Virus record (IMG/VR): IMGVR_UViG_3300021399_000100
From: a virus
Lineage: Duplodnaviria; Caudoviricetes
Direction: 5' to 3' (one strand)
Length of the DNA: 64,000 nt
A model generated the notes under the pieces. It made no database searches, was not told where the DNA came from, and saw only the letters and a list, made by a program, of their open reading frames with translations. The position numbers were made by a program, and so were the translations under genes. This document shows, piece after piece, positions 3,160 to 11,400 of this stretch (positions within the stretch are counted from its first letter, which is position 1; each line of letters opens with the position of its first letter).

Positions 3160-4110
3160 ATGAAAGAGTTACTAATTAAGAAGCACGCACCTGTTGAGAT
3201 TGCTGAGTCATTCTGGCCTGAAGCCGTCCTTAAATCGTTGACTACAGCAGACCATAATCTTGTGATAGGGCCTCCTGGAACTGGCAAGTCTTCCACCATT
3301 CAGGCTTATTTGAAAGAGCATGGTTTTTCTTTCATTTATCTGAATGGTTCCGACAACCGTGGTCTAGACGCTGTCCGTACGACGATCCAGAACTATATCG
3401 ATTATGATACTGTCGGCGGCAGTGACAACCGTGCGGTGCTAATCGATGAGATAGATGGCTTTACTCCTGCAGCATTCAATGCATTGCGATCTGTGATGGA
3501 GCATGCTAATGGTGTGCGATTCTTCGCTACAGCCAATAATGGAAGAGTTATTCCTGCGCCTATCAAATCTAGGTTTAATGTGACAGAGATCGACATAAAC
3601 AATACTGAATTTAAACAGAAGTGGCTGCTTCGTATTCAGAAGATCCTGGAACTTGAAAATGTCACATTTAATAAGGATAACAATATGGCTCTCGCTCTGA
3701 AGAGCATATATCCTGATTTCAGAAAAGCATGCACTATACTGAGCCAAGCTATCAATGATGACAATGTTCTGGACTCTAAAACGCTGACTCAACTAGCTAA
3801 TAATAATGATATCGTCACTGACGAAGAGGCTACGTTTAAGTGGTTGATGGGTTCTGCTCCTGATAATATCTATCATACTCTGCGAAGCCTATCCTCGTAC
3901 GCAGAAATTATGCAGACATTCGCGTCGCCATTTATCAACTGGCTCCAGCCGAAGCTAGATCCTCATAAATGGAGTGAAGTCGCTTTCAAGATCAGCGCAT
4001 CTTATGGCCAACATATGGTACAGTATCAAGCAGCACCCGACCAGTTGTTAATTACTTATGCGTACTTATTGACTGTGAGGGGGTATGTGCTTCAAGCAAT
4101 GTCTAAGTGA
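3160..4110 (+). CDS. sliding-clamp loader AAA+ subunit (T4 gp44/RFC-like)
   Basis: Walker A GPPGTGKS, LNGSDNRGLDAVR, Walker B LIDEID, sensor ATAN, IKSRF, YPDFRK; likely start ATG 3160. Confidence 0.9.
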   Translation: MKELLIKKHAPVEIAESFWPEAVLKSLTTADHNLVIGPPGTGKSSTIQAYLKEHGFSFIYLNGSDNRGLDAVRTTIQNYIDYDTVGGSDNRAVLIDEIDGFTPAAFNALRSVMEHANGVRFFATANNGRVIPAPIKSRFNVTEIDINNTEFKQKWLLRIQKILELENVTFNKDNNMALALKSIYPDFRKACTILSQAINDDNVLDSKTLTQLANNNDIVTDEEATFKWLMGSAPDNIYHTLRSLSSYAEIMQTFASPFINWLQPKLDPHKWSEVAFKISASYGQHMVQYQAAPDQLLITYAYLLTVRGYVLQAMSK

Positions 4111-4159
4111 TAACTTTGCCTAATATTATACATCTCACTTATCTTTGAGCCAAGTGAGC

Positions 4160-4207
4160 TGCGGCATGGACTGATAGATTGATAAATATCTGTTCCATGC
4201 TGCTTTT
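4160..4207 (+). terminator. intrinsic terminator after the clamp loader gene
   Basis: GCGGCATGGA...TTCCATGCTGC stem followed by TTTT. Confidence 0.6.
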
Positions 4208-4657
4208 GTTTACATATAGAAATAGAGAATGCTACAAATTTTGCAAGAAAGTCATAAAAAATATGAACTACAACGAAAATATTTATAATTTTATGGCAGA
4301 AAACATGCAGATAGTTTGTTATGCAGATGTAAATATATTATTAATATCAGTACATCAATGAGAAAATATTTTACATATAATGTGTTCAACATGAGCTCCT
4401 TTGGATTTCATGCGAATTTCGCTACTACAGCCAATCCGCAAAGAGCATCTATGACATCATGAGCGCTACTGAATTAAAGATGATATACGCATTAATATAA
4501 AAAGGTAGCACATAATACGCTACCTTTTGTTTTGTATAGGGGAATATTTTCAGAAATCGGATGATTATATAATTGAACGTAATAAGATAGTTCATGATAA
4601 TCATCATGGTTCTGTTACGACGCCTTTTTAGCTCAGCTGGTAGAGCACGTGATTTGT

Positions 4658-5124
4658 TAAACAGATTCCGTACAATGTCATTGCTTATGGAAAAGAAACA
4701 AAAAGGTAATTTAGTTGAGTTGCAGTGCATCACTGCATTTTATGAATTAGGTTATCAAGTCAGCATTCCATACGGTGAAAATTCCAGGTATGATTTTGTA
4801 GCGGACATAGACAACAGACTTATAAGAGTTCAAGTCAAAGCATCTCATGAAGTTGATGAAAACTCTTTTCGATTCAGTTGTCAATCTGTTAAATCGAAAA
4901 GATCTGGGATTTCCAGACGTAAGTATACGAAAGATGAAATTGACTTTTTTTCAACTTTCTATAATGGTAAATGTTACTTGGTGCCAGTCGAAGAATGTTC
5001 AATATATAAAACACTTCGGACATCGGAGAGTAAAAATAACCAAATGCAAAACATAAATTTTGCAGATAGTTACGAGCTAGAAAAACAGATTGATAAAATT
5101 AAAAACCCGGAACATTGATTAACA
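4658..5124 (+). mobile_element. endonuclease-encoding tRNA intron/insert lacking an evident self-splicing core
   Basis: Lies between tRNA positions 36 and 37; terminal pairings GATTTGTTAA/TTAACAAATC and TTCCG/CGGAA; ORF fills nearly the whole element. Confidence 0.8.
4687..5118 (+). CDS. PD-(D/E)XK homing endonuclease, I-Ssp6803I/PDDEXK_5-like
   Basis: KQKGNLVELQCITAFYELGYQVSIPYGENSRYDFVADIDNRLIRVQVKA matches the family pattern (KG...P.G....YD........VQVK); Y...EIDFF motif; start ATG 4687 or 4675. Confidence 0.9.
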   Translation: MEKKQKGNLVELQCITAFYELGYQVSIPYGENSRYDFVADIDNRLIRVQVKASHEVDENSFRFSCQSVKSKRSGISRRKYTKDEIDFFSTFYNGKCYLVPVEECSIYKTLRTSESKNNQMQNINFADSYELEKQIDKIKNPEH

Positions 5125-5200
5125 AATCTCGGGGTCGTTGGTTCGAGTCCAACAAGAGGCTCATAAGAAATATAGATCTTTGACATGTTAAATTATATAT

Positions 5201-5272
5201 AGTCCTTTCGTATAGCGGCTAGTACACAAGATTTTGATTCTTGGAGGAGGCGTTCGAATCGCTTAGGGACTA
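5201..5272 (+). tRNA. tRNA-Gln(TTG)
   Basis: Cloverleaf; CAAGA-TT TTG AT-TCTTG. Confidence 0.9.
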
Positions 5273-5287
5273 CAAAATAAATTATAT

Positions 5288-5359
5288 AGTCCTTTCGTAT
5301 AGCGGCTAGTACACAAGATTCTGACTCTTGGAGGAGGCGTTCGAATCGCTTAGGGACTA
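5288..5359 (+). tRNA. tRNA-Gln(CTG)
   Basis: Same as the preceding tRNA except loop TT CTG AC. Confidence 0.9.
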
Positions 5360-5374
5360 CAAAACAATAATGTA

Positions 5375-5449
5375 TGCGGGGTGGACTGGAGTAGGTTCCA
5401 GCTTGGTCTCATAAGCCATATAACGTGGGTTCGAATCCCACCCCCGCCA
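5375..5449 (+). tRNA. tRNA-Met(CAT), initiator-like
   Basis: CT CAT AA loop; 1:72 mismatch; T arm GTGGG-TTCGAAT-CCCAC. Confidence 0.8.
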
Positions 5450-5537
5450 CAATGATTCAGGGGGCGTGTCACATTGCTGTAGACACCATAATATAAATCC
5501 TGGAGGTTTGGAGATTTTACCATAAAATCTCCATAAT

Positions 5538-5610
5538 GGATCTGTAGCTCAGTTGGTAGAGCACTAGACTGAAGATCTAGGTCGCGACAGTTCGAATCTG
5601 TCTGGATCCA
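5538..5610 (+). tRNA. tRNA-Phe(GAA)
   Basis: CTAGA-CT GAA GA-TCTAG; full cloverleaf. Confidence 0.95.
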
Positions 5611-5619
5611 CATAAATAT

Positions 5620-5693
5620 GGGGCTGTAGTTCAGTTGGCTAGAACGTCTGCTTTGCACGCAGAAGGTCGTGGGTTCGAGTCCCACTAGCTCCA
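5620..5693 (+). tRNA. tRNA-Ala(TGC)
   Basis: TCTGC-TT TGC AC-GCAGA; G3:U70. Confidence 0.95.
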
Positions 5694-5700
5694 CATAAAT

Positions 5701-5773
5701 GGGGTTGTAGCTCAGTTGGTAGAGCGTGTGACTGTTAATCACAAGCGCGCAGGTTCGAGCCCTGTCTGCCCCG
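5701..5773 (+). tRNA. tRNA-Asn(GTT)
   Basis: TGTGA-CT GTT AA-TCACA. Confidence 0.9.
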
Positions 5774-5957
5774 CGCAATTGCCGCCTGACGCGTCTAGTA
5801 CACGCAGATAGAGTATCTATAGGAGAGAAACATGCCTATACGCTCTGTTTTGTCGGGAAAGCATCTTAGCGGCTATGGAAGTTGGCTAAGGAGGCTTGAT
5901 AGTAAGCCTTAACAGGATAAGTTGTTTCTGTGATGATTTCTATCACGTCATCACTAT

Positions 5958-6041
5958 GGATTGTTAGTTCAGTCGGTTAGAACGCATGCATCACACACAC
6001 AAAACATGCATGAGACACGGGTTCAAACCCCGTACTTTCCT
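5958..6041 (+). ncRNA. tRNA-like RNA with an Asp-like body and an 18-nt CA-repeat anticodon loop (pseudo-tRNA or decoy)
   Basis: D arm GTTC-AGTCGGTTA-GAAC, stem CATGC/GCATG, T arm ACGGG-TTCAAAC-CCCGT; loop ATCACACACACAAAACAT; two acceptor-stem mismatches. Confidence 0.7.
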
Positions 6042-6063
6042 CAGGTCTATTTTTAGATTATAA

Positions 6064-6137
6064 CTAGGCATGGTGGAGTTGGTTAACACACCGCGTTTGG
6101 GACGCGGGGATCGGGAGTTCGAATCTCTCTGCCTAGA
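6064..6137 (+). tRNA. tRNA-Pro(TGG)
   Basis: CCGCG-TT TGG GA-CGCGG. Confidence 0.9.
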
Positions 6138-6147
6138 CATAAATTAC

Positions 6148-6220
6148 ATCGGGTTCATCTAGCGGTCTAGGATACCACCCTTTCACGGTGGCCACATGGA
6201 TTCAAATTCCATACCCGATA
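6148..6220 (+). tRNA. tRNA-Glu(TTC)
   Basis: CCACC-CT TTC AC-GGTGG. Confidence 0.9.
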
Positions 6221-6269
6221 CACAATAAAACTGTTGAAATATAAGACATAAGTCTAAAACAGTTCATAT

Positions 6270-6341
6270 GGGTATTTTAGCTCAACGGTAGAGCGCCTGA
6301 CTGTGGATCAGGATACGATGGTTCGACACCATCATTTACCC
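6270..6341 (+). tRNA. tRNA-His(GTG)
   Basis: CCTGA-CT GTG GA-TCAGG; encoded G-1 and C73. Confidence 0.9.
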
Positions 6342-6591
6342 CAAGTCTGGTGCGATGTATTGGGGCGCGGTAAGCAATGATACGTAATATGCTACATCAT
6401 ATGTAAGCCCGTGAAAAATGCCTCGGAGGGGGTGACTACAACCATGTATGAATAGGCATATATTAAGATATATGGAAGTACCACTGAGCAAGAGGTTCCA
6501 GTTAATACTGCGAGAAATCCTAACGCAGAGAACGTGACGACAGCGAATACATCAATCTATAGGTTGGCAGCTGGAAATAGACAGCAGAATA

Positions 6592-6676
6592 GGAAGTGTG
6601 GGTGAGTGGCTTAAACCGCATCTCTTGAAAAGATGAGGCCAGCAATGGTCCGGGGGTTCGAATCCCTCCGCTTCCG
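6592..6676 (+). tRNA. tRNA-Ser(TGA)
   Basis: CATCT-CT TGA AA-AGATG; long variable arm; G73. Confidence 0.9.
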
Positions 6677-6904
6677 CGATAGGGCACAGCAACGTCAGCT
6701 GTGGAGATACGAGGGAGGGCAATAATAATAACCTTGTCATCGGTGTCTAAAATCTTACACAACCTCGTGCGATTACTGCGCACTCACTACGAAGGTATCG
6801 ATGACTTGATTGACTTAAATTCCGTATCCAGGTTGATCCTCGTTAAGACTTTGGATATCTATATACCTTACATAAGAGAGCCTATCACTGCTCTCTTTTT
6901 TAAT

Positions 6905-6976
6905 GGCTCCTTAGCTCAATGGATAGAGCACCAGACTTCTAATCTGATGATGATGGTTCGATTCCATCAGGAGTCA
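6905..6976 (+). tRNA. tRNA-Arg(TCT)
   Basis: CCAGA-CT TCT AA-TCTGA; A20 in the D loop. Confidence 0.9.
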
Positions 6977-7077
6977 CTTGTATTTTGAATCAATTTAGTA
7001 CTTGTTTGGGGTAATCCATGCAGCATCTAGTGATTATATATATGTAAGAGTTCATTGATATAATAAATAAATAATAT

Positions 7078-7150
7078 GTACCTGTAGCTCAGCTGGTAGA
7101 GCTCCTGACTTTTAATCAGGAGGTCACAAGTTCGAATCTTGTCGGGTACA
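7078..7150 (+). tRNA. tRNA-Lys(TTT)
   Basis: CCTGA-CT TTT AA-TCAGG. Confidence 0.95.
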
Positions 7151-7379
7151 CAATGATGTGATTTACTGAATTATTTATACAATGTTGTTGGATGCATTGA
7201 AAAATATTCATAATTTCACATCATAATAAATAAGGCAATCCTCACAAGAGCTAGAATGTTGAGGTTTAATATGGACAAGTTCATCAATGACGTTTATGTA
7301 TGAATGAAGGCATGTTAGGTCGCACATTACGTAGGAGGCAGATGTAGGCCGAACGTATGATAACGGCATTGCCTTTTAA

Positions 7380-7453
7380 GGACCAATAGCTCAGCAGGTT
7401 AGAGCAACTGACTCATAATCAGTAGGTCGTAGGTTCAAGCCCTTCTTGGTCCA
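7380..7453 (+). tRNA. tRNA with CAT anticodon, probably Ile2 (lysidine) type
   Basis: ACTGA-CT CAT AA-TCAGT; body resembles bacterial tRNA-Ile2; elongator Met not excluded. Confidence 0.8.
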
Positions 7454-7492
7454 CTTTATTATTAATGTTTAATTTTTCACATTTTATTAATT

Positions 7493-8308
7493 ATGATGAA
7501 AATGAATACGCTGCTTGGCGTTACAGACCACGCACAAGCTGTTGCAAACAAAGAGGTGTCTGAATATACATCGCTCTTCAAAAACAAGGGTGGCCAATTC
7601 ATTGGTGAGTTGAAAACGTACGAGCCTCACGAAGGTTACCCCGACAAGCCTGCAGAACACGTTAATCGCACTGTGGCTTCAACTGTGTCTGAGCAGTTCG
7701 ACTATATGTTGAACGATAAAGACCCGCACTGTGGCGCACTCCCTAAGTATTTGAAACTTCTGTTTCAGATTGAGGCCACCAATTCAATCGGTGCCAAACG
7801 CGTTCCATTGATTGTAGATGGTGTAAATTTAGGTAGTTTGACTGCGGTAGAGTTGATGCGTTTGAAGAACGTCCTCACATCAACGAACCTAGACGAAATG
7901 CTCAAGAATATCCCAGTTCGCAGTGACTCCAAGAGATGGACCCGAGCAGGCGGTGATTATTCTGACAGAGAGGTATATGAATCGGATGTCATCCGCTCAG
8001 TGGATAGAACCACTATCAAGACCCAGGAAATCTTGAAGGATCCAAATATTGATCCATCTAACATTCCAGCGAATTACCGCTCAACCGTAGTTGAAAGGGC
8101 GCAGATTGTCGAAATGGCTGACCAGACCCGTCAGGAGTTCACCGGTGAGTGGTCACAGACTCAGAAGGCCTATCTATTGAGCCGAAAGTCATTGCTGCTT
8201 AACGCAGTAATCGCAGCTCTTAAAGAGGTTAACGATATCGAAGCATCTCCAGCAAATTTGGACGTAGACACAATGCTGAAATATCTGTTCTTTGGCAACA
8301 AGGAATAA
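7493..8308 (+). CDS. conserved hypothetical protein (DUF7873-like), coupled to a downstream structured RNA
   Basis: Recalled family pattern: F.G..KTY.P, V..TV.E, ATN, LIVDG, L.LK, IPV....W, FTG.W...K..LL.R..LL.AV..AL..VN, C-terminal YLFG. Confidence 0.65.
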   Translation: MMKMNTLLGVTDHAQAVANKEVSEYTSLFKNKGGQFIGELKTYEPHEGYPDKPAEHVNRTVASTVSEQFDYMLNDKDPHCGALPKYLKLLFQIEATNSIGAKRVPLIVDGVNLGSLTAVELMRLKNVLTSTNLDEMLKNIPVRSDSKRWTRAGGDYSDREVYESDVIRSVDRTTIKTQEILKDPNIDPSNIPANYRSTVVERAQIVEMADQTRQEFTGEWSQTQKAYLLSRKSLLLNAVIAALKEVNDIEASPANLDVDTMLKYLFFGNKE

Positions 8309-8315
8309 TAAATAA

Positions 8316-8648
8316 GGGATAAGGTTATTGGGTTAGCCTTATCTCACAAATTGACTAAAGCTTTACTTTTACTCTTTACATTTAAGCTTAACAGTCCTAG
8401 AGTGTTAGCATTGAGTCAAGAGCATTACAGTATAGCTTTATTGCAAAGCCATAGCATGTTCGTGTAATTCTTCATGAATTGTAAACACTTAGGCGCGGGT
8501 TCGAATCCCGTCCTGCCCGCAATTTTTTGATATTATATATGGGCAGGTGGTGAAGGGGTTAACACGGGTGTTCCACAGCTTTAGCATAACTTGCTATAAA
8601 GGTATTTGCACAATTCTACGGATATGCAGCAGGGATAGCTGGTATCCT
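8316..8648 (+). ncRNA. structured RNA containing a circularly permuted tRNA-like domain (core 8484-8572)
   Basis: T arm plus CCTGCCC (8495-8518) precedes GGGCAGG plus D arm (8541-8565); closed by AACACTT/GGGTGTT, GAATTGT/ACAATTC and GCATGTTCGTG/TACGGATATGC. Confidence 0.8.
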
Positions 8649-8649
8649 A

Positions 8650-8722
8650 GGGGGAGTAGCTCAAAAGGGAGAGCACACGAATCTTAATCATGGAGTTGCC
8701 GGTTCGAGTCCGGTCTCCCCTG
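8650..8722 (+). tRNA. tRNA-Lys(CTT)-like, atypical
   Basis: Cloverleaf with CACGA-AT CTT AA-TCATG (A32, one stem mismatch); G73. Confidence 0.6.
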
Positions 8723-8727
8723 CAAAC

Positions 8728-8807
8728 ATGGCGTTAGACAAATTGGTAAAGTCACACCCTTTATTCTAGGTTGGGTGAATTTGAAGGTTCGAATCCTTCA
8801 CGCCGTA
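8728..8807 (+). ncRNA. tRNA-like RNA with a 13-nt anticodon loop (identity undetermined)
   Basis: ATGGCGT/ACGCCGT acceptor, GAC/GTC D stem, CACCC-TTTATTCTAGGTT-GGGTG, GAAGG-TTCGAAT-CCTTC. Confidence 0.7.
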
Positions 8808-8832
8808 CAAATTTTAGATAATATATGGAAAT

Positions 8833-8903
8833 GTATCCTTGGTCTAATGGTAAGACGGCGGTCTCCAAAACCGCTAATCGAGGTTCGATTCCTTGAGGAT
8901 ATG
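8833..8903 (+). tRNA. tRNA-Trp(CCA)
   Basis: GCGGT-CT CCA AA-ACCGC. Confidence 0.9.
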
Positions 8904-9070
8904 CCGCCAGCATACTAACTACAGGCATGATGTGAGGTATGCATGCTTTCCACTTGTTGCCTGCAATGGAGGAAAGTACAGTTGCTAGTAAGTGTACCAT
9001 ATCATAGGCAGGTTCCTATGTCTAGCTCATGGCCAGTACTGAACAATAAAGGATGCACAAGAAGCTGACC

Positions 9071-9217
9071 AGCGAAGTAGCTCAATAGGTAGAGCACAGT
9101 AATTCATATACGGGAAGATTGCCGTTCGAACATCGCGCGCGAAGTAGTTCAACGCCATTCAGCGAGAGCACCGTATCCATATAACTGAAGATGACAGTTC
9201 GAATCTGTTCTTCGCGC
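9071..9217 (+). ncRNA. tandem tRNA-like units with cross-complementary anticodon arms
   Basis: Two GCGAAG-TA-GYTC...GAGC-A starts and two TTCGAA loops; CAGT(9097)/ACTG(9184) and ATACGG(9108)/CCGTAT(9171) pair between units. Confidence 0.7.
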
Positions 9218-9250
9218 ATAATGTAACTTGTATATTTGTGTTTTGATTGA

Positions 9251-9460
9251 ATGAATGCATATGTACCACATGAACATTACTCTAAAGGCGACTGTGTAGT
9301 TATTGATAGTACATGGGTTGTCAAAGGCTCTAAAACAATAAAAGCAAACGCGTCCGGTATAGGAATGTATGATTATCGCATATATACTATATCGAACGGT
9401 ACTGTTTCTATAGACGTTCCAGAGTGGCTCATATTGGGCAAGCTTGAAGATGATGTATAG
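9251..9460 (+). CDS. hypothetical protein
   Basis: ORF track; plausible small gene. Confidence 0.6.
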   Translation: MNAYVPHEHYSKGDCVVIDSTWVVKGSKTIKANASGIGMYDYRIYTISNGTVSIDVPEWLILGKLEDDV

Positions 9461-9532
9461 AAATGATTAGCTATGTACATCTTGACTATATAGTTAATAA
9501 TTCAATAAGTATAAGTGTAGTATATTACAATA

Positions 9533-10072
9533 ATGAAAAACTTTTTAATGATTTTAATAACGGTGGCTCTTGCTTTTTTTGCACACCATTTTTTAAGCTC
9601 ACCATCGTATTCTGCAACTACAGAAATCACGGTAGACAATTTCCTTGATATTGCTAAAGCAGATCTTGCTACAGAGTCTTCGAAATCAGAAAACGTCGTG
9701 TTCTACGAGAGTCAAATCACATTCTCTAATTTCATTACATCAGATACTGTAGGCATCGAACGAGTTATGAATGTTATTCAGGATACTTCTATGTGCATAC
9801 AGTTTCACCATCGTGGAACTAAAACATATATTACTAAAACGCATTCGTATTGGCTAGAAGATATTCCTGTTAACTTGGATAGGTTGATTACATTGGATAG
9901 TGCTATTACTAGATTGAACATGGCAAACGTACCAAAGCCTAAGACACGTATATGTATATTGCGCAACGTCTTAGGACCGACGCCTACAACCCCAGCTTAT
10001 ATTTTTGGAACGCATGGTACTGGATTCGTAAGAGTTGACGGATATACCGGAGAGGTTAGTACTATAGAATAA
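9533..10072 (+). CDS. hypothetical exported protein
   Basis: N-terminal signal/TM segment; C-terminal VRVDGYTGEV is PepSY-like. Confidence 0.7.
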   Translation: MKNFLMILITVALAFFAHHFLSSPSYSATTEITVDNFLDIAKADLATESSKSENVVFYESQITFSNFITSDTVGIERVMNVIQDTSMCIQFHHRGTKTYITKTHSYWLEDIPVNLDRLITLDSAITRLNMANVPKPKTRICILRNVLGPTPTTPAYIFGTHGTGFVRVDGYTGEVSTIE

Positions 10073-10122
10073 TAAATATAGGGAAGCAATCAATACCATA
10101 GTGTTCTGATTGCTTTTCTTAT

Positions 10123-10193
10123 GTCAGGTTGGCCGAGTGGTTAGGTAATGGTCTGCAAAACCATTTACGCAGGTTCGATTCCTGTACCTGACT
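10123..10193 (+). tRNA. tRNA-Cys(GCA)
   Basis: ATGGT-CT GCA AA-ACCAT; U73. Confidence 0.9.
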
Positions 10194-10216
10194 CTTCATT
10201 TAAAATAATATATGTC

Positions 10217-10648
10217 ATGATAGATATAGATAAACTTATTCTTTCTGCAACAAAAGAAAGAGACATAGCTAGGCGAGAGAGCTATAAGATGGTAAAGTCA
10301 AAGTTCCAGGAATGGAAGACTTCTAAGGAGAATGCTGGTAAGAAGGAGATGACTGAGGCTGATCAAATTAAGATCCTCAAGAAGCTTAAAGCCGAATACG
10401 AAGCAGATGCTAGTATGTATCGTACAAAAATGTCAGGCCAAGACATTGCGAAGCAATACGAAGAAACTGCAGTTATTATTGGCAAGCTTATCCCTGCCGA
10501 AGCTAGTGAAGCCGATATAGAAGCGTATATTAGCGAGATAGTTGGCGGTTCAAATATGCAGTTGAAAGATGTGATATGTGCTACTAAAGCGAAGTTCCCT
10601 TCGACTGATGGTAAGATCATAGCCACATTGGTAAAGAAACATTTCTGA
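10217..10648 (+). CDS. GatB/YqeY-domain protein
   Basis: IDKLILSATKERD...MVKSKF...ILKKLK...E..II..LIP...DGKII..LVK; real start ATG 10217 after tRNA-Cys. Confidence 0.8.
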   Translation: MIDIDKLILSATKERDIARRESYKMVKSKFQEWKTSKENAGKKEMTEADQIKILKKLKAEYEADASMYRTKMSGQDIAKQYEETAVIIGKLIPAEASEADIEAYISEIVGGSNMQLKDVICATKAKFPSTDGKIIATLVKKHF

Positions 10649-10752
10649 TATATAGACAAAAATGATTAAGGCTATCATACAAGATAGCCTTTTGTTTTAT
10701 ATCGTAAATAATTTGTATAACGCTACTCCAAGTGGCTTTAACTAAAACAGAT

Positions 10753-11400
10753 ATGATAGTAGATAATTTCGAAGCATTTGAGAAATGCATCATGAATTTC
10801 CAAACAGATGATTCTGGAGATCCTTATATTTACCAGATTGATCTAATTGAAAGGAAGAAAGACGGTGTGGATTGTATTGGTAGCAAAAATAGTTCGCGCC
10901 GCGTAGCATCTTTCTACCCTGAAGATATAGCTCAATGGCAGAAATACAAGAACCGTATTAAAGAGATGTGCACTAGCCGACCAGGATTGAGAGCTTACAT
11001 CAACCCATCTAGAAAGAAAGCATCTAAAGTTCTATTACATTTGAATACATTAATAGCCAAACGTTTATATGACAAGGCATATACAGGACTGAGCAAGTTG
11101 TACCCTTCTGCTATAGCATCATGCAAGCCATACAAACAGGATGCATTGTGGGTTCTTGACGTAGACGCGGATGATCCATTTTCTTCAGATGATATTTTAG
11201 AATATTTTGAAAGCGTAGGTCTTTCTTCAGTCATAGTAACATCATTGCCTTCTAAGAGTGGCTGTCATATAATAACAAAGGCTTTTGATCGACATAAATT
11301 TGACGAATGGCTAAATAATAAGTGGGGAGGAAAGAAAACTGGTGAATCTATAGTTCATATCAATTCCCTTACTAACCTGTATATTAATACAGGCATATAA
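10753..11400 (+). CDS. conserved phage protein with AEP (primase-polymerase)-like motifs
   Basis: WVLDVD (hhhDhD) and PSKSGCHII (sxxGxH). Confidence 0.55.
   Translation: MIVDNFEAFEKCIMNFQTDDSGDPYIYQIDLIERKKDGVDCIGSKNSSRRVASFYPEDIAQWQKYKNRIKEMCTSRPGLRAYINPSRKKASKVLLHLNTLIAKRLYDKAYTGLSKLYPSAIASCKPYKQDALWVLDVDADDPFSSDDILEYFESVGLSSVIVTSLPSKSGCHIITKAFDRHKFDEWLNNKWGGKKTGESIVHINSLTNLYINTGI

What the first reader, a model, noticed from the sequence alone, without database searches (positions are those of the whole stretch)
7493..8648. Protein gene plus a ~330-nt RNA with a circularly permuted tRNA domain: candidate undescribed RNP system
Seen: 7 nt after the stop of a 271-aa gene is a 12-bp hairpin (8316-8345). 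A mostly unpaired stretch follows, rich in AGC-core hexamers (AGCTTT, AGCTTA, AGCATT x2, AGCCAT, AGCATG, AGCATA). Then comes a tRNA written back to front: T arm GCGGG-TTCGAAT-CCCGT with acceptor 3' strand CCTGCCC-G (8495-8519), an AT-rich linker, then GGGCAGG-TG with D arm GTG/CAC (8541-8565). The anticodon stem (AACACTT/GGGTGTT) has no loop. It continues into long-range helices GAATTGT/ACAATTC and GCATGTTCGTG/TACGGATATGC. The linker resembles the ordinary inter-tRNA spacers of this cluster. Known: T-arm-before-D-arm topology occurs in YrlA Y RNAs and in two-piece tmRNA. This RNA lacks the tmRNA G3:U70 pair, has a real D stem, and no Ro60/TROVE gene is in the window. Inference: RNase P and 3' processing could yield a two-piece, possibly aminoacylatable, anticodon-less RNA whose hexamer repeats are bound by the adjacent protein. 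It could act as a translation-related or anti-defence RNP.
Basis: partly seen in the sequence, partly recalled or inferred. Interest (0 to 1): 0.9.

Follow-up and report, generated by a model that had tools for sequence, protein, structure and literature searches.

The report
Megaphage RNA with back-to-front tRNA core
A roughly 300-base structured RNA built around a tRNA written back to front sits in the tRNA gene arrays of Lak-type giant gut phages, almost always after the same unknown protein gene. It matches no described RNA family, so it is a strong candidate for a new phage RNA-protein system.

Summary
Window 8351-8649 encodes a structured RNA whose core is a circularly permuted tRNA: T arm, acceptor 3' strand, 21-nt insert, acceptor 5' strand, D arm, and a 5-bp anticodon-like stem with no loop.

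I found 62 distinct relatives in Lak-type megaphage contigs. They have 22 different acceptor stems in 27 lineages, and the anticodon-like stem, helix P1 and long-range helix H1 all covary. Every relative with a downstream tRNA call (most) ends directly at that tRNA.

The junction carries the same signals as the phages' real tRNA genes: C74 in 62/62, A76 in 25/27, and U at -1. This points to RNase P and 3'-end processing.

A DUF7873 gene lies directly upstream in 40 of 52 DUF7873 loci, down to 32% protein identity. Only the Lak-A/B/C clade has the two apart.

H1 and a terminal hairpin replace them.

No Rfam family reaches threshold (YrlA 20-36 bits against 69). Three complete Lak genomes lack Ro60 but carry a canonical tmRNA and SmpB, so this is neither.

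Rumen metatranscriptome contigs cover the RNA, including its insert. Function is unknown. My best reading is a tRNA-mimic RNA matured by tRNA enzymes and partnered with dimeric DUF7873.

The scan noted this same stretch before (e1-5482477), not on other DNA.

The parts
7493..8308 (+). DUF7873 gene (271 aa), the conserved upstream neighbour of the RNA
   Evidence: Pfam PF25283, 86.7 bits. AF2 model has pLDDT 89 with no fold match. Directly upstream of the RNA in 28 of 36 RNA loci and 40 of 52 DUF7873 loci. Self-association model passes.
8316..8345 (+). 12-bp hairpin after the stop codon; specific to this lineage and not part of the conserved RNA
   Evidence: Fold -16.4 kcal/mol, z -5.6. Absent in relatives such as L070, where the stop lies about 15 nt before P1. 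mRNA contigs of two RNA runs end at 8316 and 8320.
8351..8419 (+). 5' domain: helix P1 (TTGACT 8351-8356 with AGTCAA 8414-8419) enclosing a 57-nt loop of hexamer repeats and the central UCCUAGA motif (8395-8401)
   Evidence: RNAalifold. P1 covaries: U:A, C:G, G:C and A:U at the sixth pair, UUCGAC/GUCGAA in L384, and AUACCU/AGGUAU in L419.
8420..8442 (+). Linker carrying further AGCWUUA-type repeats
   Evidence: Alignments.
8443..8456 (+). H1, 5' strand (pairs with 8592-8609)
   Evidence: Compensatory pairs. Present in the minimum-energy fold. Cognate versus swapped-partner test z -5.8.
8459..8478 (+). Hairpin TTCGTG...CATGAA between H1 and the tRNA-like core
   Evidence: Hairpins of different sequence sit at the same place in other lineages, for example TAATCA/TGATTA and GATAAT/ATTATC. 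Read directly from the sequences; no formal test.
8485..8489 (+). Anticodon-like stem, 3' strand (ACACT), followed by the variable loop 8490-8494
   Evidence: 5/5 pairs in 26 of 27 lineages, with more than 20 different sequences.
8495..8511 (+). T arm (GCGGG TTCGAAT CCCGT)
   Evidence: 15 distinct T stems, with a TTCRANY loop.
8512..8522 (+). Acceptor 3' strand CCTGCCC, discriminator G8519, and CAA trailer
   Evidence: C74 in 62/62 relatives and A76 in 25/27, the same pattern as real tRNA genes of these phages.
8523..8540 (+). AT-rich insert between the acceptor strands; the whole insert is 18-131 nt in relatives
   Evidence: Bridged by RNA-library contigs in four runs.
8541..8547 (+). Acceptor 5' strand GGGCAGG, preceded by AU at -2/-1
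   Evidence: 22 distinct acceptor stems in 27 lineages, all 7 bp. -1 is U in 51 of 62.
8548..8566 (+). U8, G9, D arm (GTG / AAGGGGTTAA / CAC) and G26
   Evidence: The D arm resembles a phage tRNA-Gly(UCC). D arms differ between lineages.
8567..8571 (+). Anticodon-like stem, 5' strand (GGTGT)
8577..8589 (+). Conserved single-stranded motif AGCUUUAGCAUAA where the anticodon loop would be
   Evidence: GCN-UYA-NNN-UAA/UGA is conserved in most lineages.
8592..8609 (+). H1, 3' strand, with a conserved 3-nt purine bulge (AAA here, GAA in most)
8620..8647 (+). Terminal hairpin with GGA in its loop (AGGGAUA 8631-8637)
   Evidence: Present in the minimum-energy fold. Hairpins of different sequence occupy this place in relatives. 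Tentative loop-loop match to UCCU 8395-8398.
8650..8723 (+). tRNA-Lys(CUU), which sets the RNA's 3' end
   Evidence: ARAGORN and Rfam. All 36 unique RNA loci, and 37 of the 40 DUF7873-locus elements, are followed by a tRNA, mostly 110-117 nt after the acceptor 5' strand.

Best explanation
Window 8351-8649 encodes a conserved, structured non-coding RNA of about 300 nt, found in Lak-type megaphages of gut and rumen Bacteroidales.

Shown: its core is a complete tRNA body lacking only the anticodon loop, written in permuted order (T arm, acceptor hairpin with an insert, D arm). The anticodon-like stem continues into a junction with a hairpin and a bulged long-range helix H1. A 5' domain of UUAGNN-type hexamer repeats closed by helix P1 and a 3' terminal hairpin flank the core.

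Inferred from position: the RNA is transcribed with the DUF7873 gene and the tRNA array, and RNase P cutting at the next tRNA makes its 3' end.

Inferred from signals (about 55% likely): the acceptor hairpin is also treated as a tRNA end. RNase P cuts before G8541, and the 3' strand is trimmed and completed to CCA after G8519. This gives two pieces held together by the tRNA fold and H1, as happens to Mycobacterium smegmatis YrlA.

Inferred from gene linkage only (about 45%): the dimeric DUF7873 protein is its partner, perhaps reading the repeats.

Speculative: the particle acts as a tRNA look-alike that engages tRNA-handling factors during infection, as a scaffold or a decoy.
For: - Family and structure: 62 distinct members were collected.
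- RNAalifold found 26 of 42 pairs with compensatory changes.
- The acceptor stem has 22 distinct versions in 27 lineages.
- The anticodon-like stem pairs 5/5 in 26 of 27 lineages, against 21% for swapped partners.
- H1 cognate duplexes rank 5.3 of 27 on average, z -5.8.
- P1 covaries.
- Position: every unique RNA locus, and 37 of the 40 DUF7873-locus elements, is followed by a tRNA, mostly 110-117 nt after the acceptor 5' strand.
- Processing signals: 273 real tRNA genes of these phages have C74 without CCA (CAA 87, CTA 38, CCA 4) and AU at -2/-1 in 45%.
- The element has C74 in 62/62, A76 in 25/27, N73 = U in 48 and G in 14, and U at -1 in 51/62.
- Expression: RNA-library contigs cover 8366-8568, 8366-8547, 8387-8682 and 7482-8723 in four runs from four studies. 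One of them (X20) holds the RNA but not the protein gene.
- Protein link: DUF7873 is upstream in 28 of 36 RNA loci. The element follows 40 of 52 DUF7873 loci down to 32% identity, often as the only protein gene seen inside the tRNA arrays.
- DUF7873 self-association: model score 0.68 against a best control of 0.00. That mark was reached by 20 of 30 proteins solved as pairs of one chain and 1 of 23 solved as single chains. The runs share at least 79% of contacts, and the partner pLDDT is at least 83.
Against: - All four RNA-library contigs bridge the insert 8519-8540, so an uncut form exists. The same contigs also bridge the true tRNA-Lys 5' junction at 8649/8650, so they cannot measure processing.
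- Contigs cannot show RNA ends, and DNA carry-over cannot be excluded.
- In the Lak-A/B/C clade DUF7873 and the RNA are about 170 kb apart, so the link is not obligatory in cis.
- DUF7873 is mildly acidic (median pI 5.9) and has no known RNA-binding fold.
- Phage gene order is conserved in general, so adjacency alone is weak evidence of binding.
- No function has been tested.
Confidence: 0.5

Rival explanations
1. A Y-RNA-like molecule whose acceptor hairpin stays closed, as in Salmonella YrlA. The insert is just a variable loop, and the RNA acts whole as a sponge or tether for a host factor such as the host's own Ro60/Rsr or another tRNA-binding protein.
For: - Same topology as YrlA over the full model length, scoring 20.2 bits in the window and 35.5 bits in L384.
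- The insert is retained in RNA-library contigs of four runs.
- Insert length is free, 18-131 nt, and long inserts form their own hairpins.
- Bacteroides thetaiotaomicron carries a TROVE gene in the control search.
Against: - C74, A76, N73 and -1 U are conserved inside an otherwise free loop, which a closed loop does not explain.
- The Rsr-binding motif GNCGAAN0-1G is absent.
- No TROVE gene was found in three Lak genomes.
- All scores lie below Rfam's threshold of 69 bits.
Confidence: 0.2
2. A cis-acting element of the operon rather than a trans-acting RNA. After RNase P cutting, the upstream piece would give the DUF7873 mRNA a protective tRNA-like CCA 3' end. Alternatively, the element organises processing or anti-termination at the head of the tRNA array.
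For: - It always sits between DUF7873 and a tRNA, often at the head of arrays of 11-25 tRNAs.
- The stop codon lies only about 15 nt before P1 in many lineages.
- One RNA-library contig joins the gene, the RNA and tRNA-Lys, spanning 7482-8723.
Against: - In Lak-A/C the RNA stands alone after a divergent gene, yet keeps its whole structure.
- In three runs the mRNA contig and the RNA contig are separate.
- About 300 nt of conserved architecture with repeats is more than an end-cap needs.
Confidence: 0.15
3. A second, permuted tmRNA-like ribosome-rescue RNA. After processing it would be aminoacylated, and the short GCN-UUA-NNN-stop stretch next to the tRNA-like core would serve as a mini tag frame, using the phage SmpB.
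For: - The junction is CCA-like and N73 is conserved.
- GCN-UYA-NNN-UAA/UGA is conserved after the core, with TAA and TGA interchanging.
- Lak genomes encode SmpB.
- There are weak partial tmRNA model hits of 11.6-23 bits.
Against: - No G3:U70 pair in 27 lineages.
- It has a full D stem and an anticodon-like stem, and no pseudoknots.
- ARAGORN finds no tmRNA.
- The last tag residue would vary (A, V, D, I, S, F, L).
- The apparent frame is explained by the hexamer repeats.
- The P1 loop length varies over 55-61 nt, so no long frame is kept.
- Lak phages already have a canonical tmRNA with G3:U70 about 7 kb away.
Confidence: 0.07
4. A decaying remnant of two tandem tRNA genes with no function of its own.
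For: - The layout could arise from a tRNA dimer.
- My detector also flags adjacent real tRNAs that have matching acceptor stems.
Against: - It is kept across lineages whose neighbouring protein is only 32-50% identical, with compensatory changes in five helices and conserved flanking domains.
- It is present in RNA libraries.
Confidence: 0.02

Closest known systems
YrlA-type bacterial Y RNAs (Rfam RF02553), especially Mycobacterium smegmatis YrlA
   Same: - The tRNA-like module has the same order: T arm, acceptor-like hairpin, D arm.
- The anticodon-side stem leads into a longer helix.
- The variable insert sits at the acceptor tip.
- In M. smegmatis a 7-bp acceptor stem is cut by RNase P and receives CCA, giving two pieces (PMC4201824).
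   Different: - No Ro60/Rsr gene in the phage genomes and no Rsr-binding motif.
- CM scores are 20-36 bits against a threshold of 69.
- It has an extra 5' repeat domain, a bulged H1 and a 3' hairpin.
- It sits inside phage tRNA arrays next to DUF7873.
Two-piece (circularly permuted) tmRNA of alpha-proteobacteria, cyanobacteria and some beta-proteobacteria
   Same: - Permuted gene order, with the T arm and acceptor 3' strand before the acceptor 5' strand.
- An insert of variable length that is excised.
- The pieces are held together by pairing.
   Different: - No G3:U70 pair, and a real D stem.
- No pseudoknots and no convincing tag frame.
- The phages have a separate canonical tmRNA and SmpB.
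Large ornate phage-associated RNAs found next to tRNA genes (ROOL, GOLLD)
   Same: - Phage-borne and highly structured, with unknown function.
- They lie close to or among tRNA genes.
- Rumen and gut origin in the case of ROOL (from my own knowledge).
   Different: - No match to their Rfam models.
- It is smaller.
- It is built around a permuted tRNA.
Periodic triplet-repeat RNA targets of oligomeric proteins (TRAP with spaced UAG/GAG repeats, HutP with UAG repeats)
   Same: Runs of UAG-containing units at a fixed spacing of 5-6 nt, clearest in relatives such as L409, L424 and L428.
   Different: - DUF7873 has no likeness to TRAP or HutP.
- Its model gives a symmetric dimer interface, not a ring.
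- Binding is untested.

Membership tests
YrlA / bacterial Y RNA | Score at or above the Rfam RF02553 gathering threshold (69 bits) | tested here: not met
   20.2 bits in the window. The best relative scores 35.5 bits (L384 element).
YrlA / bacterial Y RNA | tRNA-like module in the order T arm, acceptor-like hairpin, D arm, inside a stem formed by the flanks | tested here: met
YrlA / bacterial Y RNA | Encoded beside, and bound by, a Ro60/Rsr (TROVE) protein | tested here: not met
   No TROVE match in the complete Lak-C1, Lak-A1 and Lak-B2 genomes, while the control search found it in two known carriers. None in 20 window ORFs. Binding to a host Rsr was not testable.
YrlA / bacterial Y RNA | Rsr-binding motif GNCGAAN0-1G in the 5' strand of the basal stem | tested here: not met
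   Only scattered chance matches, in 4 of 27 lineages and at inconsistent places.
tmRNA (one-piece or two-piece) | G3:U70 pair in the acceptor stem (alanine identity) | tested here: not met
   Pair 3:70 is G:C, C:G, U:A, A:U or U:G (never G:U) in 27 lineages. The Lak-C1 canonical tmRNA does have G3:U70.
tmRNA (one-piece or two-piece) | Detection by the Rfam tmRNA models or by ARAGORN | tested here: not met
   RF00023 11.6 bits and RF04321 13.7 bits. At most 23 bits in relatives. ARAGORN finds none.
tmRNA (one-piece or two-piece) | Tag reading frame with a resume codon, a conserved hydrophobic end and a stop | tested here: inconclusive
   A short GCN-UYA-NNN-stop stretch is conserved, but its last residue varies and it coincides with the hexamer repeats.
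Permuted tRNA genes (Cyanidioschyzon type) | The halves rejoin to give a tRNA with a normal anticodon loop | tested here: not met
   The anticodon-like stem runs on into other helices, and no loop halves exist.
Ordinary tRNA gene | Contiguous cloverleaf recognised by ARAGORN or Rfam RF00005 | tested here: not met
   No tRNA call overlaps 8495-8565, nor the elements in 40 related loci.
RNase P / tRNA 3'-end substrates | A 7-bp acceptor stem stacked on a T arm, with the leader and trailer signals used by the genome's own tRNAs | tested here: met
   Actual cleavage is not testable with these tools.

The most novel reading that the evidence does not exclude
A Ro60-independent ribonucleoprotein of stop-codon-recoding megaphages. 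In this reading the RNA is a two-piece, CCA-ended and possibly aminoacylated tRNA mimic. Its UAG-containing hexamer repeats are read by DUF7873 dimers. It sits beside amber-suppressor or lysine tRNAs, and it controls or protects the phage's takeover of translation, for example by timing amber suppression or by neutralising tRNA-targeting host defences.
Probability: 0.2. Interest if true: 0.9.

Novelty: new variant of a known kind. Interest (0 to 1): 0.78.

Why it matters
Giant Lak-type phages are widespread in human, primate and livestock guts and carry large tRNA arrays whose biology is poorly understood. This RNA is deeply conserved in them. The evidence suggests it is expressed and built to be handled by tRNA enzymes, and it is tied to a protein family of unknown function.

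It would extend the tRNA-mimic and Y-RNA idea to a system without Ro60. It would also give DUF7873 a first functional context. The questions it raises are directly testable: end-mapping, an RNase P assay, and protein-RNA binding.

Tried and rejected
- **Reading frame in the 5' domain.** A frame reading ALA*ASALLNPRYLA* looked conserved among close relatives. In the wider family the P1 loop is 55-61 nt (about 85 nt in one group), and the in-frame stops are not kept. I rejected it as a coding constraint.
- **Promoter motif.** ATTGASTMAAGAGC-like words are no more frequent in the window than in shuffles: 24 found against 24 expected.
- **Cas7-like fold for DUF7873.** Foldseek's weak top rows were Cas7 proteins. 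No Cas7 chain reached Z 2 on re-alignment or in the wide search. PADLOC, NCBIfam, PHROGs and the language-model atlas gave nothing.
- **Permuted group I intron-exon arrangement.** Considered from memory. There are no intron model hits, and the tRNA halves lack loop pieces.
- **Pairing between copies of AAAGCUUU.** The central W changes in both copies together, so this is not compensatory.
- **Loop-loop contact.** AAAUCCU with AGGAUUU is complementary in about 11 of 27 lineages, but each case is only marginal against shuffles. I kept it only as a tentative idea.
- **Bacterial genome scan.** This gives no information on absence.
- **Uncovered parts in RNA-library contigs.** The gap at 8321-8365 and the region 3' of 8568 in two runs cannot be interpreted.
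- **TAG recoding in the window.** The test was inconclusive.
- **Literature.** No paper mentions DUF7873. Searches for permuted tRNAs in phages, and for Y RNA, tRNA-like and megaphage terms, turned up nothing on such an RNA. The three tRNA-mimic families of a 2026 preprint are other motifs.
Full report
**Where the window comes from.** It carries a cluster of about 19 tRNA genes at 5201-10194. DNA and protein comparisons place it among Lak-type megaphages of Prevotella. Window 8348-8566 matches Lak-A1/C1 at 68% identity, and the 271-aa protein is 53% identical to Lak proteins. Public runs that hold the stretch are bovine gut and rumen metagenomes.

**The observation.**
- The ORF at 7493-8308.
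- A 12-bp hairpin at 8316-8345 (-16.4 kcal/mol, z -5.6).
- T arm at 8495-8511.
- Acceptor 3' strand at 8512-8518, with discriminator G8519.
- An AT-rich insert.
- Acceptor 5' strand at 8541-8547.
- A D arm with a 3-bp stem.
- An anticodon-like stem (8567-8571 with 8485-8489) that has no loop.

ARAGORN and Rfam call no tRNA there.

**Relatives.** Two conserved words from the element were scanned through IMG/VR and JGI metagenome contigs. A search for relatives of the protein was added. Together these gave 62 distinct versions of the element. All lie on large viral or metagenome contigs, many of them 100-550 kb long.

**Structure.** On 18 close relatives, RNAalifold gave 42 pairs, and 26 of them had compensatory changes. 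I then tested 27 lineage representatives.
- The acceptor stem is always 7 bp but has 22 different sequences, and the T stem has 15.
- The anticodon-like stem, which played no part in detection, pairs 5/5 in 26 of 27 lineages. Only 21% do so when upstream and downstream halves of different lineages are combined.
- The long-range helix H1 (window 8443-8456 with 8592-8609) forms in the cognate combination far better than in swapped ones: mean rank 5.3 of 27, z -5.8.
- H1 shows a recurring 3-nt purine bulge in its 3' strand.
- Helix P1 (8351-8356 with 8414-8419) closes the 5' domain. Its sixth pair occurs as U:A, C:G, G:C, A:U and wobble forms. L384 has UUCGAC/GUCGAA, and L419 has a wholly different AUACCU/AGGUAU.
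- A hairpin sits between H1 and the core (8459-8478), and a terminal hairpin with GGA in its loop lies at 8620-8647. Both recur with different sequences.

The window's minimum-energy fold contains H1, the T arm, the acceptor stem and the terminal hairpin. The 12-bp hairpin after the stop codon is absent from other lineages.

**Repeats.** There are three to five after the P1 5' strand, one or two before its 3' strand, two after P1, and two right after the tRNA-like core, where the anticodon loop would be. Relatives such as L409, L424 and L428 show them most clearly. The window's own copy is partly degenerate.

These repeats create apparent Ala-Leu or Leu-amber frames. A frame looked conserved among close relatives. 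In the wider family the P1 loop length varies from 55 to 61 nt, and the in-frame stops come and go. I therefore do not read it as coding.

**The junction looks like a real tRNA end.** In 273 distinct tRNA genes from these phage loci, position 74 is C in over 90%, but CCA itself is rare (CAA 87, CTA 38, CTT 30, CAT 30, CCA 4). AU precedes the first base in 45%.

The element has C74 in 62 of 62 versions and A76 in 25 of 27 lineages. N73 is U in 48 and G in 14, and U at -1 occurs in 51 of 62. The rest of the insert varies freely in sequence, and its length runs from 18 to 131 nt.

That pattern is hard to explain if the insert is only a loop. It fits cutting by RNase P before G8541, with trimming and CCA completion after G8519. 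There is a direct precedent: M. smegmatis YrlA has a 7-bp acceptor stem, is cut by RNase P and receives CCA in vivo (PMC4201824).

The core's D arm resembles a phage tRNA-Gly(UCC). In other lineages the D arm looks like other tRNA types, so no single amino-acid identity is kept.

**Position.** All 36 unique RNA loci, and 37 of the 40 DUF7873-locus elements, are followed by a tRNA. In most it starts 110-117 nt after the acceptor 5' strand. That tRNA is usually Lys, in some lineages Asn, Glu or Cys, and often an amber suppressor with a CUA anticodon. In several lineages it is the first of 11-25 tRNAs. RNase P cutting at that tRNA would therefore make the RNA's 3' end.

**The protein.** The 271-aa product belongs to DUF7873.
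- Its AlphaFold model is confident (pLDDT 89).
- The model matches no solved or viral predicted fold. The best wide-search Z is 5.8, to generic helical proteins. Foldseek's weak Cas7 rows were not confirmed.
- It is mildly acidic, with a median pI of 5.9 across 121 relatives.
- A three-copy model supports self-association through a symmetric interface. The score is 0.68 against a best control of 0.00. That mark was reached by 20 of 30 proteins solved as pairs of one chain and 1 of 23 solved as single chains. The runs share at least 79% of contacts, and the partner pLDDT is at least 83.

DUF7873 lies directly upstream, on the same strand, in 28 of 36 RNA loci. In the reverse test, 40 of 52 DUF7873 loci carry a permuted tRNA element whose T arm lies 150-190 nt after the stop codon. 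This holds down to 32% protein identity and across different D-arm types. The gene is often the only protein gene seen inside the tRNA arrays.

The clear exception is the Lak-A/B/C clade. Gene and RNA are both present there but about 170 kb apart. A few further loci escaped my strict detector.

**Expression.** Contigs from four metatranscriptome runs of four studies cover the RNA: 7482-8723, 8387-8682, 8366-8568 and 8366-8547. One run (X20) holds the RNA but not the protein gene, which suggests a stable RNA rather than DNA carry-over.

All four contigs bridge the insert. Two of them also bridge the true tRNA-Lys 5' junction, so bridging only shows that precursors or DNA are present. Contigs cannot show ends.

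**What it is not.**
- No Rfam family reaches threshold in the window or in 12 divergent relatives. YrlA aligns over its full length but scores 20-36 bits against 69, and tmRNA models score at most 23 bits.
- Three complete Lak genomes have no TROVE gene, and 20 window ORFs have none.
- The YrlA Rsr-binding motif is absent.
- The Lak genomes do have SmpB (184 bits) and a canonical one-piece tmRNA with G3:U70. In Lak-C1 that tmRNA lies about 7 kb from the element.
- The element never has the G3:U70 pair.
- It is not one of the three recently described bacterial tRNA-mimic families.
- No paper mentions DUF7873.

**Reading.** The existence of a conserved, structured, permuted-tRNA RNA family is close to certain. 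The steps beyond that are inferred:
- Two-piece maturation by tRNA enzymes, about 55%.
- DUF7873 as the protein partner, about 45%, on genomic linkage only.
- A role as a tRNA look-alike scaffold or decoy during infection, speculative.

The main rivals are a closed-hairpin Y-RNA-like sponge, a cis-acting operon element and a tmRNA-like rescue RNA.

**Closest known relative.** This is the YrlA class of Y RNAs. The element works like one in topology and probably in processing, but it fails the membership tests. I rate it a new variant of a known kind, with a real chance of being something more distinct.

Noticed in passing
window 8924-9131: An unannotated stretch between tRNA-Trp and the 147-nt tRNA-like call at 9071-9217. 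It is covered by an identical 208-nt contig in two metatranscriptomes and by a longer contig in a third. Its depth is above that of the neighbouring genes, so it may be another stable RNA.
   Followed up: partly
window 8650-8723 versus L019: The tRNA right after the RNA is Lys(CUU) here. In a near-identical contig (L019/L377) one base differs and the anticodon is CUA, an amber suppressor. Many relatives also have a CUA tRNA directly after the element.
   Followed up: partly
273 tRNA genes in the related loci and window 4000-11000: tRNA genes of these phages almost all encode C74 but not CCA (CAA or CUA instead), and AU often precedes the first base. This is a shared processing signature.
   Followed up: yes
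Lak-C1 record MK250029.1, 182229-182625 (L129) and 470839-471270 (L127): Lak phages carry a canonical tmRNA (49 bits, G3:U70, tag roughly DDEIDFRMAA) that ARAGORN misses. They also carry an SmpB gene.
   Followed up: partly
L070, L075, L076 and relatives, the insert between the acceptor strands: In one clade the insert has grown to 68-131 nt. It holds its own hairpin and a conserved AATCCTTTGTTT word.
   Followed up: no
window 4594-5118: A PD-(D/E)XK endonuclease ORF lies among the tRNA genes.
   Followed up: no
window 10148-10648: A YqeY/GatB-like domain protein is encoded inside the tRNA cluster.
   Followed up: no
L409 730-837: The YrlA model scores 36 bits on a stretch upstream of DUF7873 in another phage. 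This could be a pair of adjacent tRNAs or a second permuted element.
   Followed up: no
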